Below, piece after piece: positions 17,746 through 61,800 of a stretch of 64,000 nucleotides of DNA. A model generated the notes under the pieces. The model saw only the letters and a program-made list of their open reading frames with translations. It did no database searches and was not told the origin of the DNA. This DNA comes from Amoebidium appalachense. Its lineage: Eukaryota; Protista; Ichthyosporea. The translations under genes and the position numbers were made by a program. The stretch lies in contig CAVNZM010000003.1 in NCBI GenBank assembly GCA_963693365.1, forward strand, positions 9,546,782 to 9,610,781, read 5' to 3'. Each line of letters opens with the position of its first letter. The stretch's first letter is position 1.

Positions 17746-20700
17746 ATGGATGGAGAGGATATGTATGACGAGTTTGGCAACTACATAGGGCCTGACCTAG
17801 ATGAGAGTGAGGATGATAGTGATGAGGAGCAGAATGAGATCGAGGCGGCATGGGAGGCGCAGCAGGAGCCACAGATACTCACCACGGCACCTATGGAACT
17901 GGAGGGTGTAACTGGTAGGTGGGGTTGGCGCGAGGGAGGGAGGAAGGGGGGAGGGGGAGGGCAGGAGGCGAAAGGGAGGGGTTACGCGAAAAAGTGAAGG
18001 GTTTGTCTTTGAAATCTCATTAGATTTGTAGAGAAAGGGCGAGATGGTTGGTAGGGAGTAGCGGGAGGAGGGGAGGGAAGGTGAGAGTGGGTGGAAGGGG
18101 CACCCAAGGGGCGCCAGTTAGTGTATGTGTGTGTGTGTATTACGCGCGGGGAGGCAGAGGGGGAGGGGGGGGGGGGGGGGGGAGGGGGAGGAGAGGCTGC
18201 GGTAGGGTGCATTCTTGGGGGGAAGGCGGTGTTCTTCTTGGTCATTCAGAGGCTTATGCTGTTCTTTTGAGCATAATTAAGCGTTCGGTGAGGGAGGGAG
18301 AAGGGTTACGAGCGTGTGCCTCCCCCACTATACCCCTGTCTCCCTCATTCCAGAAAACATGTGTTGCTAGACTTGGGTTCATCTTGGGTAGTGGTCGGCA
18401 ACTTATCCTTGTGTAATTTAGCAAGAACAATAATGTGTGGGGCACGAACGACGGTGCTTGTTGAAGAGCCGTGATGCGGACAAGTTGCATTGGCGCACGA
18501 CAGTGTGTATAGGAGTGTGTGTATCTGAGAAAGGGAGGGACGGGGGTTTTTGGGAGGGGAGGGCTGGGGGGCTGGGGGAAGCGCAAGTGCGCGCGCGTGT
18601 GTGTGTGTATGTTTGTGAAGGGAAAAAGGGAGTATGTGGAGGTGCTTGTGCAGGAAGGCGGTGTTTGCCGTAAACGTTCCCTGTTTCAATATCATTAACT
18701 GGGGGGTTTCCACGGGTTCAGAGGTCACGTCTACTGCTATTGTACTTCATGAGGACAAAAAGTATTACCCCACTGCCGAAGAAGTTTACGGTATGGCCCC
18801 CCCCCCCCCCTTCCCTCCCCCCCTGCCCCACCCCTCCACCGCTCCACGCTCTCCCTCTCGTTCCTCCTTCTCCACTCCTGCCCCTCTACCTCGCCTTTGG
18901 TTGTTCCCTGTTTCTGCTAGCTTCCTTCGCCCATTTTCCATCAGTGTGCACGTACGGATCGACATACTGATACATTTACGTGCAGCCCCCCTCCCCCCCC
19001 CCCCCCCCCCCACTCCCCCTCCCGACGCTCCCCGCGCCCCCGACAGTATCTGAGTTGGGTTTCGTTAACGAGGTGAATAGGTCGAAACTCGGGTACTGTG
19101 GATGACGTGGGGCCCCCCTGAGGATGGGCTCTGCTTATTATGCATACTCTTTATGTATGGCTTGCATTCTGCATCGTGTTATCCGTTTGTTCTTGTGTAC
19201 TTCGTACTTTTTGACGCATTCAAACCCCCCCCCTCCCCCCCCCTCCCCCTCCAAGGTTTTTACATACTCTGAAACACTGGTGCATCAAGAAGCAAGCAAT
19301 CACACACACACACACACACACACACACACACACACACACCGCCCACACACCGCCCACACACACACACCTCCACACCCGCACCCAGACCCCAGGCCTACAT
19401 GGCAACACACACAAGCACACGCATAAGCACACGCTAAATTACACAGACACACGCACACACATGCACCCACACAAACACACATGCACACATCCCCCCCCCC
19501 CCCCCCTCCCCCAGCGCCCACACATACATACATACACATGCACACACACACATACACACGCAGGTGTGTGGCCACACAGGCGCGCGCATAGTTCGGGCAA
19601 GTGCACATTTAAGCACACACACACCACCCAGGGGCGGGCACACGAACTACACACAGAATCATACCCATATACTCAGGCACACACACACATTCCCCACCCC
19701 CCCCCCCCCCCCCCATCCCCCGACCCCTCCTCTCCTCTACCCTTCACCCTCCCCGCTTCCTCCCACATCTGCTCCCCTCTCCCCCCTCTTCCTATGGTGC
19801 TCAATTCTCTCCCTTTTACCCCCCCCCCCCCCCCCCCCTCCCCCCTTCCACCCCTTCCCTCCGTGCTCCCTCTCCCTATTCAATCCCCCCCCCCCCCCCC
19901 CCCGGCCCTCCGCTTTCCTCCCCCTCTCCAAACTTCCCTTCCAAAAAACATTACAGGAGCGGATGTGGAGACCCTTGTTCAGGAGGAGGATACACAGCCG
20001 CTGACTGAGCCCATTGTGCTGACCAAAAAGAACAAAAAATGGAGCAAGCTGGAGCGGTCTTATCCAAACACCACATACAGCAAGGAGTATGTGTGCCTGT
20101 GTGTGTGTGTGTGTGGGGGGGGGGGGGGGGGGGGGGGGGGGGGGGAGGGGACGGAGGGGTCGGTGTGTGTGTGTGTTTGTGTGTGTGTGTGTGTGTGTGT
20201 GTGTGTGTTGTGTGTGTTGTGTGTGTGTGCACGCTCACAAAGTGCATGTGTTTGTAAAGGCGCGCCTGCTTCTGTGTGTGTGTGTGTGTGTGTGTGTGTG
20301 TGTGTGCGCGCGCGCGCGCTCGTGCTGCGTGCACTGAGTGTTTGTGGGCCGAGGGGCACGCACACCCATGCACTTGAATATCTGTTGATGTGTGTTCGTT
20401 TTACTGGTTTTTTGGGGGGGAGGAGCGGCATAGAAAGAGAGGAAGGGCTGGTGTACACGAGTTACCTCCCCCCTCTCCCTCCCCCCCCCCCCTCCCCCTT
20501 CCCCCCTCTTCACCCTCCGCGCCCGTTTCCCACCGGAGTAATTATCCTGGTCAGAACATGCATGCACACACGTGGTATGCACACACGTTTGCTGCACGCA
20601 CACAGCAACATCTACACATACACACATAGACCCACCACAAATACAGACCTACACTGTCACGGACACACTCATATCCGTGCATGCACGTGTCTGCGCACAT

Positions 20701-58812: not shown

Positions 58813-61800
58813 ATGAAGTGCACGTTCAACGCTTTGGCTCCTGTGCCCGAGCTCCCGCCCAATCTTGACTTGTGGACTGACCCTGACCACAACCTTCTGG
58901 GTGTTGTGCACGTAGCCTGTCTAAAGGGCGATAAGGTGATTACCCCTCCCCCCCCCCCCCCCTCTCCCCCCCCCCTCTCCCCCCCCCCCCCACCCCCCAC
59001 CCCCCCTCTCCTCCCCACCCCCCCACCCTTCTTTGTTGCCATGATCCCTCTATTCCCACACACGCCACCCTTTCCCTCGTCTTTTAACACGTCACTACTA
59101 CTCCGCCACTCTCTCTGCGTTTTTTGCAACAATCCACTGCCCTGCCCCTCTCCCCTCCTCCCCACCCCCTCTTCCCCCCTTACCTCTCACCCCCGCCCTC
59201 CCCCCCCCATCTCTACGCGCGTCACTTTTTTCCCTCCCGTATTGCCCTTCGTTCTCTAAACCGCCTCTTAACCAGAACCGTCTTGTTTTCACCATCGTTT
59301 CTTGCTCCGTCAATAATCTTCGTAGTCCCGCACACAGATGTAAGCCTCCACACACAAAACGTTCATTCCCTTTCGTTTCACATCACAAAAGTTGCTGCCC
59401 TCCACTTTCCCCGCAAGCACAAACACACTCAGACAATTACATTTTTCTCCCTTGACGTTTTCTTCCCTTCAAGGTATCCAATCTAATCCTGTGTTCAACC
59501 AAAGCTAGATCTTTTCTCACCCACCTGTCCCCCCTCCTCCCCCCTCCCCCCCCCCCCCTCCCCGGGCTCCCCGGTTCCATGTTACCTCTGCCGACGGTTT
59601 TTTCATTATGCAGCTGCCAACCGAAGGGGTCGTTGTTGCTGTTGTGGATGGCCCAACAGAAAGCTTTCTATTAGCTGTGCTGGGCGACAGTATTCAGCCC
59701 GTTCAGGTTTTGTACCTGAACCCCCCCCCCCCCCCCCCCCCCGTTTTCTGCCGCTGTGTTGGCGTTTTTTTTTGGGGGAGTGTTATGGACATGTAGCTAC
59801 TCACAGTTTGTCACAACGCACATACAACCCCCCACTCGGACTATCGATTTGGCATTTTTCAAGCCCAAAGCAATGGGTGATACCATGTTTCCGGCTGACA
59901 TCCAGGGGCATAGCTTTCCGTTCGAAGACGTTAAAGTTCCGCCGTAGTAAGGGTGTTACTACCCTGCGGCGTGGGTCAAATCTCATATTTTCCCCTCTGA
60001 TTCCGAATTCTGCGGCCTTCGGGACTTAAGTCTTTTCAGCTGGTGTAGTATGTTAGCCAGGGAAGTATCGAATTAGGTAGCGACGGGGGAGCTTCCTAGA
60101 AGCCCCGTCTCCTGAGTTCCTATCTATATTTTTCTTGCTTCTGCTTACTGCTGCAACTTTAACCCCCGGCCTTTCCCACTGCCCTTGCCTGCATAAGTAA
60201 CCCTGCTCGTCTCTGATCAAGACGGGTGACCTACCCATGTTCAAGTGAAACAGTATCTGAGTTGGGTTTCGGTAACGAGGTGAATAGGTCGAAACTCGGG
60301 TACTGTGGATGACGTGCCCCCCCCCTGAGGATGGGCTCTGCTTATTATGTGTACTCATTATGTATGGCTTGCATTCTGCATCGTGTTATCCGTTTGTTCT
60401 TGTGTACTTCGTACTTTTTGACGCATTCAAACCCCCCCCCCCCCCCCCTCTCTATCCCACTTAACCGTTTCCTGTTCTCCTTTTGCCGCAGATTTGCTCC
60501 TCTCGTTCCCACCGTTTGATAAGCTTGAACACTACCTCAGTCTCGAGGATTCCCCCCCCCCCCCCCCCCCCCCCCCCCCCCCCCGCCCGCCCCCGCTTTC
60601 TCCGATGCAAGAAGATGGCGGAGGCAGAGGGAAGGAAGAGAAGGAGTCAGTGGGATGAGGGGTTTGGGGGTAGGGCCAGTCTTTGGACGGTTTGATCTAT
60701 TCCCTCTTTCCGACTTAATTGATTTTGCGTTTGTTTTCCCTTTCTTTCCTTCCGAAGCAGGCATTTGCTGGTGGGCTGTAGGGTAGGCGAGGGGAAGAGG
60801 GGGGTGGGGGGGGGGGAGAAGGGGGGAAGAGCAGGTAAGGGAAAGATGAACAAGTTGAGTTATTCTGATGGGTGGGTGGATGAGGGGGGCAGGGGTGTTA
60901 GGGACAAATTTGATCAATTCTTGCCGTGTGGAAGTGGGTGATGAAATAACAAAATTTCAAGGGTTGGGTACCGGATAGGCGAGCCCGAGGGTTTTTTTTT
61001 TTTTGAGAGGGGGGGGGGGGGGGGGGGGGGGGGGGAGGGGGTATATCATCATATTAGAAATATGGACCAAAATATTCGTCTGATTTTTCCCCCCTATTTT
61101 TCCAGGTTCCCACTGGCGTTCTCTCAACCAATGACATTGAAGATGCATGGACAGCCACCCCCGACGGCCTTCTCCTATTGGCTAAGGGGGCGGTGTGGCT
61201 TGCCAAATTAGGCAGTTGCCAAAACGGGCAATATGAGGCCTCTCTGAGCAGACTTTTGGATCTGCCTGCGGGCGCACGGGAGGTGGTGGCGACTTGGGTG
61301 GAGGGATGTGGGCCGGTGGTGGCTGTGATGGAGGAGAGAGGGCTGAAGGATGTGGAGGTGGGTGTGTTTGGGATGTGTGTGTGTGTGTGGGTGGGTGGTG
61401 GGTGGCGCACGCGCGGGGAGGGGGGGGGGGGGGGGGGGGGGGGGGGGGGGGGAGGGAGGGAGGGAGGGAGCGAGGGTAGGTCGGAGGGTGGGGGTTAGGG
61501 GAGGGAAGGGGGTGGAGTAGGTGGGTGGATGTGTGCATGTGTGTGTGTGTGTGAGTCTGTGTGTGTCGGGGGGAGAGGGGGGAAACAGGGGGGGGGGGGG
61601 GCGAAGAAGGAGGGTGAGATTGTTCGTGGTGGTGAGTTGATGGGGAAATTGTGTGTGTGGATATGGTCGGGAGGAGGGGGGGGGGGGGGGGGGGGGGGGG
61701 GGGGGGGGGGGGGGGGGCGGAGGGGGAGGGGCGGGGAGGTGGTTCGGAAAAGAAGAAAGAAGGTAAATCTCGTGGCCAAAAGGGGAAGGAGGTGGTGAGT

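What the first reader, a model, noticed from the sequence alone, without database searches (positions are those of the whole stretch)
19043..60450. Non-LTR retroelement family with poly(C) ends that sits inside C tracts
Seen: five copies (19043-19224, 22896-22996, 25506-25659, 34915-35235, 59743-60431) have staggered 5' starts and a shared 3' end: CATTCAAA in four, degenerate in the oldest. All are followed by C-rich tracts instead of poly(A); three begin directly in a C run. All are intronic and sense to the host gene, and divergence varies. Known: variable 5' truncation with a fixed 3' end marks target-primed reverse transcription, and some Tx1-clade LINEs target microsatellites. Inference: a LINE that targets poly(C)/poly(G) homopolymers or carries a poly(C) tail, which could help generate this genome's extreme G/C-tract density. 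I know of no described family with this specificity.
Basis: partly seen in the sequence, partly recalled or inferred. Interest (0 to 1): 0.85.

Follow-up and report, generated by a model that had tools for sequence, protein, structure and literature searches.

The report
Penelope-like element nesting in C tracts
Several cut-short copies of a jumping gene sit inside runs of C in the introns of Amoebidium, a single-celled relative of animals; they are likely not a new LINE but a member of the C-run-targeting 'Chlamys' Penelope-like group known from green algae, which would extend that group to the animal side of the tree.

Summary
The repeat family is real. There are six copies (a sixth at 37238-37301; the longest starts at 59834, not 59743). 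They share a 3' end and have staggered 5' ends. Five of six also begin at a C run (P about 1e-5), so they split C tracts: targeting, not just a tail. The host is Amoebidium, an ichthyosporean. The novelty claim fails: Chlamys Penelope-like elements (PLEs) are described as 5'-truncated, intronic and (C)n-targeting (PMC8557442, PMC9977147). The longest copy carries a bulged hairpin, GGGAGCT-N7-AGCCCCGTC. The same motif stands in 12 places in the published Chlamys consensus file and in none of 9 checked places in the Naiad file, here with a compensatory pair change (relaxed motif in 43 of 100,000 shuffles). Six of seven (C)n-type Chlamys ends seen finish in AA+C run, like these copies. No RT, endonuclease, full-length copy or empty site could be retrieved, so membership rests on the RNA end. 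Best reading: a Chlamys-type PLE, autonomous or not (0.75); a C-targeting LINE remains possible (0.12). New would be a holozoan host and a conserved RNA motif that the defining paper does not describe. The family is not the main source of the G/C tracts.

The parts
59834..60431 (+). Longest copy (598 nt), 5'-truncated, young subfamily; C6 before, C17 after
60087..60109 (+). Bulged hairpin GGGAGCT-N7-AGCCCCGTC (outer G-C stem, 3-nt purine bulge, GCTTC/GAAGC inner stem), matching a motif in Chlamys consensus sequences
   Evidence: Chlamys side
60040..60060 (+). Possible upstream hairpin; its loop (GTATGT) resembles the GCATGC loop of the hairpin that precedes the motif in five Chlamys families. 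Soft, read by eye
   Evidence: sequence
60250..60306 (+). 14-bp hairpin stem in the 3' region (z = -4.0 for the 35k copy, -2.7 for the 19k copy); it accounts for the weak Rfam hammerhead hit
60325..60331 (+). CTGAGGA, half of a hammerhead core; GAAA lies 34 nt upstream (60291), but no canonical hammerhead fold
60423..60448 (+). 3' terminus GCATTCAAA followed by C17
34917..35235 (+). Copy, 319 nt, in an EFTUD2 intron; C13 before, CCCAACCCCCCCCC after
19043..19224 (+). Copy, 182 nt, in an EFTUD2 intron, C-rich on both sides
25506..25659 (+). Copy, 154 nt, older (87-90% to young copies), C tracts on both sides
22896..22994 (+). Oldest copy, 99 nt, degenerate end; the only one without a C run at its 5' junction
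37238..37301 (+).
23015..23115 (+). Candidate end of a second family, head-to-tail behind the oldest copy: CTGATGATGG about 100 nt before ATGCATGTAA+C6, the same ending as Chlamys-3_cInc. Interior not alignable, so unconfirmed
18724..37902 (+). Host gene EFTUD2/Snu114 (span of mapped exons) that holds five copies and the candidate
59612..59709 (+). Exon of a second host gene just upstream of the intron that holds the longest copy
   Evidence: contig 1 of X15, no mismatch

Best explanation
The copies are 3' ends of one high-copy repeat family that sits inside C tracts, and they are likely a Chlamys-type Penelope-like retroelement (autonomous or a non-autonomous partner) that would insert by target-primed reverse transcription at C/G runs. 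Shown: fixed 3' end, staggered 5' ends, C runs on both sides, intronic position, at least two subfamilies in public contigs, a Chlamys-like hairpin and an AA+C-run terminus. Inferred from the known group: an N-terminal GIY-YIG nuclease nicks the G strand of a tract; the free G-run end primes a telomerase-related RT at the RNA's AACCCC end; synthesis usually stops after 60-600 nt and is joined back into the same tract, so each insertion splits one C tract and the target duplication is hidden in it. Inferred and untested: the bulged hairpin is the RT or nuclease binding site on the RNA. Copies lie in introns because the C runs do.
For: 5 of 6 5' junctions at a C run (P 3e-6 to 8e-6) and C-rich 3' flanks in 6 of 6. 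Summed contig depth rises toward the 3' end, 16-fold in X4 and less evenly in X1 and X3. Four low-depth runs give contigs that run 72, 154, 165 and 309 nt past the 5' end of the longest copy, with no common start. (C)n targeting with 5' truncation is described for Chlamys; new Chlamys insertions are intronic, median 128 bp; the median here is 168. Motif: of 28 GGGAGCT hits in that paper's supplement, 12 of 19 in the Chlamys file and 0 of 9 in the Naiad file are followed 5-8 nt later by AGCCC (counted by eye). Six carry the longer AGCCCCGYC; by header or file position they are Chlamys-2_cRei, -9_cRei, -3_cInc, -6_cInc, -4_cSch and -6_cSch, all listed as (C)n. The window has one match, in the longest copy; 0 of 100 window shuffles; relaxed form in 43 and strict form in 0 of 100,000 shuffles of the copy. 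The first inner pair is C-G in all 12 and T-A here, a change on both sides. Six of seven (C)n-type consensus ends seen finish in AA+C run, as do the five non-degenerate copies.
Against: No RT or nuclease was seen: protein searches with two frames of the longest copy found no relative, and no longer copy was found in viral, metagenome or prokaryote collections. The motif was noticed after comparing sequences by eye; the strict pattern is post hoc and only one copy is long enough to hold it. The motif lies 345 nt from the 3' end here, roughly half the distance in Chlamys-2_cRei. It is not seen by this search in Chlamys families from parts 43-51 of the file. No adjacent inverted or tandem copy of the same family in the window. 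The frame whose stop lies 57 nt before the motif, as in Chlamys, is closed by a stop at the junction with the upstream letters; the frame that stays open stops 139 nt before it. In vitro, the anole PLE starts reverse transcription at an RNA site with no homology to the cut DNA (PMC11167929), so pairing of C run with G run may not be needed. Chlamys-9_cRei targets (C)n without the AA+C end.
Confidence: 0.75

Rival explanations
1. A LINE (APE- or RLE-type, for example Tx1-like) that targets C homopolymers; the hairpin match is chance or a captured end.
For: 5' truncation with a fixed 3' end is equally typical of LINEs (established knowledge). No pseudo-LTR or inverted copy in the window. A LINE-like C-terminal fragment running into (CA)n lies at 2217-2815 (-), so microsatellite-linked LINEs may exist in this genome.
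Against: No LINE domain in the copy. Chlamys-type hairpin and terminus. No paper on a C-run-targeting LINE in searches.
Confidence: 0.12
2. Another kind of PLE (Naiad-like, canonical, or an endonuclease-less Athena/Coprina type) that primes on G runs like a telomere end.
For: Half hammerhead core near the 3' end, as noted for eight Naiads. Ends of the form AACCC resemble the reverse telomeric repeats of EN- PLEs. One X1 contig has telomere-like repeats joined inside the element (table 5c).
Against: EN- PLEs are generally terminal and carry hammerheads, whereas these copies are intronic with no canonical hammerhead. The hairpin is in 0 of 9 Naiad hits; Naiads prefer (TA)n.
Confidence: 0.08
3. 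An element that carries or adds a poly(C) tail and inserts without preference; C-rich 5' flanks reflect C-rich introns.
For: Low-depth consensus contigs in X17 and X18 run through 17 C past the end. The 35k copy ends CCCAACCCCCCCCC, which looks like slippage on an AACCC template.
Against: 5' C runs in 5 of 6 against a 5-7% background; 11 of the 12 joints listed in table 5c (12 of 247 shown) go from a C run into the middle of the element.
Confidence: 0.05

Closest known systems
(C)n-targeting Chlamys PLEs of Chlamydomonas (Chlamys-2/-9_cRei, -3/-6_cInc, -4/-6_cSch; Craig et al. 2021, PMC8557442: passages, sections 9-10, supplement parts 1, 2, 5, 28, 37 and searches)
   Same: 5' truncation, C-run target, target duplication not discernible, no canonical hammerhead, AA+C-run terminus, bulged GGGAGCT...AGCCC hairpin in the 3' region
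   Different: Host is an ichthyosporean; shorter distance from motif to end; T-A instead of C-G in the inner stem; ORF, pseudo-LTR and intron in the pseudo-LTR not seen; the DNA end motifs searched otherwise gave no matching end in that supplement
Chlamys-9_cRei / Chlamys-N4_cRei de novo insertions (PMC9977147, passage only)
   Same: All intronic, very short (median 128 bp), following the distribution of (C)n
   Different: Shown active in mutation-accumulation lines; activity here is only inferred from 96-99% identity among young copies
PLE/Chlamys of Ectocarpus (PMC12477816, passages only)
   Same: A range extension of Chlamys beyond green algae, in a curated library (3 families)
   Different: Stramenopile host; target not stated in the passages seen
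Naiad PLEs (PMC8557442)
   Same: Sister clade; microsatellite targeting, very high copy number, half hammerhead cores in some
   Different: Animal hosts, (TA)n target; the hairpin motif is in 0 of 9 GGGAGCT hits
Microsatellite-targeting Tx1 LINEs (recalled; only a search listing)
   Same: 5' truncation; insertion into simple repeats
   Different: No APE or LINE RT evidence here; C homopolymer targeting not found for them in searches

Membership tests
Chlamys PLE | N-terminal GIY-YIG endonuclease without CCHH, CxC motif, RT with IFD | not testable with these tools
   No copy reaches these domains; no genome held; searches for longer copies or proteins were blank
Chlamys PLE | Frequent 5' truncation with a fixed 3' end | tested here: met
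Chlamys PLE | Insertion bias to (C)n or (CA)n, target duplication not discernible | tested here: met
   5 of 6 5' junctions and 6 of 6 3' flanks; only C-run repeats at the flanks
Chlamys PLE | No canonical hammerhead ribozyme | tested here: met
   Rfam Hammerhead_1 14.2 bits, E 4.8, gathering 34; the single CTGANGA lies downstream of both GAAA. Only the last 598 nt were tested
Chlamys PLE | Partial tandems (pseudo-LTRs), inverted 5'-truncated copy, 30-40 bp tail | tested here: inconclusive
   None among the six window copies. The same continuation after end+C7 in X10 and X16 and the 22896/23015 pair hint at tandems
Chlamys PLE | 3'-region bulged hairpin and AA+C end (not a published criterion; derived here from the published consensus sequences) | tested here: met
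LINE (Tx1/L1, RTE, R2-like) | APE or RLE endonuclease with a LINE-clade RT | not testable with these tools
   No coding region recovered; Pfam blank on the three element-overlapping frames given
LINE (Tx1/L1) | 3' poly(A) or A-rich tail | tested here: not met
   Ends carry two or three A before the C run; the RNA tail itself cannot be read from contigs
EN- PLE (Athena, Coprina) | Terminal location and hammerhead beside reverse telomeric repeats | tested here: not met
   Intronic copies; no canonical hammerhead

The most novel reading that the evidence does not exclude
A Chlamys-type element in a unicellular animal relative shares a specific RNA hairpin and AACCCC end with Chlamydomonas-group families. 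It either jumped between green algae and Amoebidium or kept the motif across the plant-animal split. The hairpin would be the telomerase-RNA-like binding element, and the AACCCC end the template that primes on G runs: a telomerase-style mechanism used inside chromosomes.
Probability: 0.25. Interest if true: 0.72.

Novelty: new member of a known kind. Interest (0 to 1): 0.47.

Why it matters
If the RT confirms it, Chlamys PLEs reach the Holozoa. The defining paper lists green algae, spike mosses and slime moulds and mentions neither ichthyosporeans nor holozoans. No paper held joins Amoebidium and Penelope. The only opisthokont trace found was an automatic repeat label in a fungal genome (PMC12465793). 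The shared hairpin is a candidate cis-element for a group that lacks hammerheads; 'hairpin' and 'stem-loop' do not occur in that paper's main text. Amoebidium grows axenically, has a chromosome-scale genome and methylates its transposons (PMC11244446 section 6), so how PLEs pick and prime a homopolymer target could be tested there. C-run targeting itself is not new.

Tried and rejected
No own genome held. Protein searches with the + frame 59804-59944, 59834-59944 (18 long repeat-type proteins at 35-49% over short stretches, judged spurious; no usable hit) and the - frame 59834-60025 found no relative, so the coding frame and even coding status are open. Exact DNA scans: viral 0, metagenome 0, prokaryote genomes 0. 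The hairpin pattern gave 70 viral-contig matches; BLAST of the copy against them showed only 22-nt matches to the motif in 3 loci, taken as background. Hammerhead: rejected as a canonical ribozyme. Whole-copy folding is no better than shuffles (z 0.27); RNAalifold on four copies gave 0 of 49 pairs with a two-sided change. The sequencing-run search listed no holder on record as RNA. X15 is only guessed to be RNA; it holds the element, but contigs cannot give level, strand or tail. Empty sites were not seen: no listed joint skips the whole copy, but tables were cut (15 of 47 joints shown). The conserved continuation after end+C7 is not in the window (one chance-level match). The repeats at 53163-53337 and 56394-56568 looked like LINE zinc fingers but read as paralogous small genes with CxxC pairs. 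The 23015-23115 candidate aligns only through its two end motifs (interior 2706 of 5000 shuffles). Earlier scan notes: nothing for this sequence or genome; four notes on hammerhead PLEs in TA repeats of other genomes did not bear on it. Paper searches: 25, 31, 32, 54, 55, 66, 82, 89. PMC13159263 (passages) and bioRxiv 10.64898/2026.07.22.740005 (abstract and outline only; its supplements not seen) added nothing. Long protein lines in the Craig supplement were cut in display, so most Chlamys C-termini were not seen.
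Full report
Observation. The five reported copies are real. A profile built from the window's copies finds six hits, all on the + strand, including a new one at 37238-37301. Identities to the longest copy run from 97% to 66%. The longest copy begins at 59834: contigs of seven of the eight public runs laid show a loose end there with the same upstream letters, and 59743-59833 is host intron ending in C6. With that correction five of six copies start within one base of a run of four or more C, against 5.4-6.8% of positions in these genes (P 3e-6 to 8e-6; 4 of 6 and P 1e-4 to 3e-4 under a stricter boundary for one copy), and all six are followed by C-rich sequence. 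The copies therefore sit inside C tracts. The all-sense orientation is weak (P 0.039).

Host. An exon of the gene that holds five copies is closer to human Snu114 (124.8 bits) than to the other Snu114 chains in the PDB (115 bits and below; 98.9 for entry 8xi2, recalled as Chlamydomonas). It matches P0024 at 100%, whose accession is EP00123_Amoebidium_parasiticum. P0024 maps to 21 blocks at 80% identity or more, none overlapping a copy. The window is thus from Amoebidium, an ichthyosporean with a 202-Mb genome that is about half transposons (PMC11244446 section 6). That paper does not mention Penelope elements in its text or its two text supplements.

Family size and shape. No genome was held, so I laid contigs of eight public runs. 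Summed word depth over most of the copy is 5e4-1e6 in X1, X3 and X4, against about 9 on the neighbouring exon in X3 and X4. This is not a copy number, but it implies thousands of copies or more (inference). Depth climbs toward the 3' end, 16-fold in X4. In low-depth runs single contigs cover the whole copy and go on 72 (X16), 154 (X17) and 165 nt (X18) upstream; an X10 contig goes on 309 nt. So the element is at least about 900 nt, and no fixed 5' start was seen. A second subfamily, matching 60183-60227 and 60308-60345, is as deep or deeper in those runs. Eleven of the twelve joints shown in table 5c (of 247) lead from a C run into the middle of the element. X10 and X16 share the same continuation after the 3' end plus C7, which may be a tandem junction or tail; this is unresolved.

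What it is not shown to be. No RT or nuclease was recovered, and no longer copy exists in the searchable collections. A weak Rfam hammerhead hit (E 4.8) first pointed to Penelope-like elements, but it falls on a 14-bp hairpin, and the one CTGANGA lies downstream of GAAA. That is a half core at most, as Craig et al. note for eight Naiads.

Comparison with Chlamys. Craig et al. 2021 (PMC8557442) describe Chlamys PLEs as 5'-truncated, mostly without hammerheads and biased to (CA)n and (C)n, with hidden target duplications; File S1 lists (C)n for many Chlamydomonas families. New Chlamys-9/N4 insertions were all intronic, median 128 bp (PMC9977147); the median here is 168 nt. This alone removes the claim of an undescribed specificity. 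Reading the consensus file, I noticed that Chlamys-2_cRei has, shortly after its stop codon, a motif nearly identical to window 60087-60109. Of 28 GGGAGCT hits in the supplement, 12 of 19 in the Chlamys file and 0 of 9 in the Naiad file continue with AGCCC after 5-8 nt (counted by eye; hits across line ends are missed). Six have the longer AGCCCCGYC, and these belong to families listed as (C)n; names are from headers for three and partly from file position for three. The window copy folds the same way, with T-A where all twelve have C-G. The relaxed motif occurs in 43 and the strict one in 0 of 100,000 dinucleotide shuffles of the copy, and in 0 of 100 shuffles of the window. The pattern is post hoc; allowing for the few conserved motifs I could have matched, chance is still of the order of 1e-3 (my estimate). 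Six of seven (C)n-type consensus ends seen finish in AA plus a C run, as do five of the six copies. A segment at 23015-23115 ends exactly like Chlamys-3_cInc and has CTGATGATGG about 100 nt upstream, as the main family has CTGAGGATGG; its interior does not align, so it is only a candidate second family.

Mechanism. Shown: geometry of ends, flanks, introns, subfamilies, motif. Inferred from the group: a GIY-YIG nick in the G strand, priming from the G-run end, early stop, and rejoining in the same tract. Whether the RNA's AACCCC end pairs with the primer is open: the anole PLE starts at an internal RNA site with no homology to the cut DNA (PMC11167929, first two of four parts read). The hairpin's role in protein binding is a proposal. 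Whether this family is autonomous is unknown. One frame is open over 37 codons and across the 30 upstream letters shown, which chance allows; its stop lies 139 nt before the motif, while the frame with the Chlamys-like spacing (57 nt) is closed upstream.

Effect on the genome. Only 10 of 188 C/G runs of eight or more lie within 30 nt of a copy, and AA precedes 25 of 370 and 31 of 446 C runs on the two strands. The family exploits the tracts and can at most split or lengthen them; it is not their main source in this window.

Verdict. Real, and most likely a new member of the (C)n-targeting Chlamys PLEs (0.75), with a C-targeting LINE (0.12), another PLE (0.08) or a tail-only element (0.05) as rivals. 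The defining protein features are untested. New are the host lineage (searches; curated Chlamys outside plants and slime moulds seen only for Ectocarpus, plus an automatic label in a fungus) and the shared RNA motif (not in the defining paper's main text). Interest 0.47.

Noticed in passing
window 2217-2815 (-): Truncated ORF with a Cys/His C-terminus like a LINE zf-RVT region; it starts after a C/T-rich tract, and its stop codon runs straight into (CG)n/(CA)n. Atlas hits at 0.96 are unnamed clusters; the nearest named one is zf-RVT (35% of members, 0.93). A possible (CA)n-linked LINE with no 3' UTR.
   Followed up: partly
window 43048-48816 (-): Young Copia LTR retrotransposon (791-bp LTRs, 97.5% identical; gag, protease, integrase and RT in three ORFs) between an LTD-domain ORF (48989-49555) and a CotH ORF (42189-43214), probably interrupting one LTD-CotH gene.
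   Followed up: partly
window 23015-23115 (+): Candidate 3' end of a second Chlamys-like family stacked behind the oldest copy.
   Followed up: yes
window 53163-53337 and 56394-56568 (-): Two paralogous small ORFs (about 70% DNA identity) with CxxC pairs; weak Lar_restr_allev hit for one (E 0.0035).
   Followed up: partly
window 7092-7485 / 7844-8253, 3732-4440, 24391-24582, 61831-62117: Local direct or tandem duplications of 64-410 nt at 93-100% identity.
   Followed up: no
window 12226-12298 and 15413-15484: 73-nt inverted pair at 82% identity, 3.1 kb apart; possible ends of a DNA transposon.
   Followed up: no
run X1, joint 60302-60292 (table 5c): Telomere-like TAGGG repeats lie between two parts of the element in one contig (depth 45).
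   Followed up: no
PMC8557442 File S6: Five Chlamydomonas Chlamys families share a two-hairpin module after the stop codon with a self-complementary GCATGC loop 32 nt before GGGAGCT (counted by eye), and AGGTGAGT donor-like sites further down; a (CA)n family ends in AA+CACACA. Not described in the paper's main text as far as searched.
   Followed up: partly
window 18724-37902: Five of six copies fall in one 19-kb gene, and none in the first 18 kb or in 38-59 kb, although G/C runs are dense there; local clustering is unexplained.
   Followed up: no
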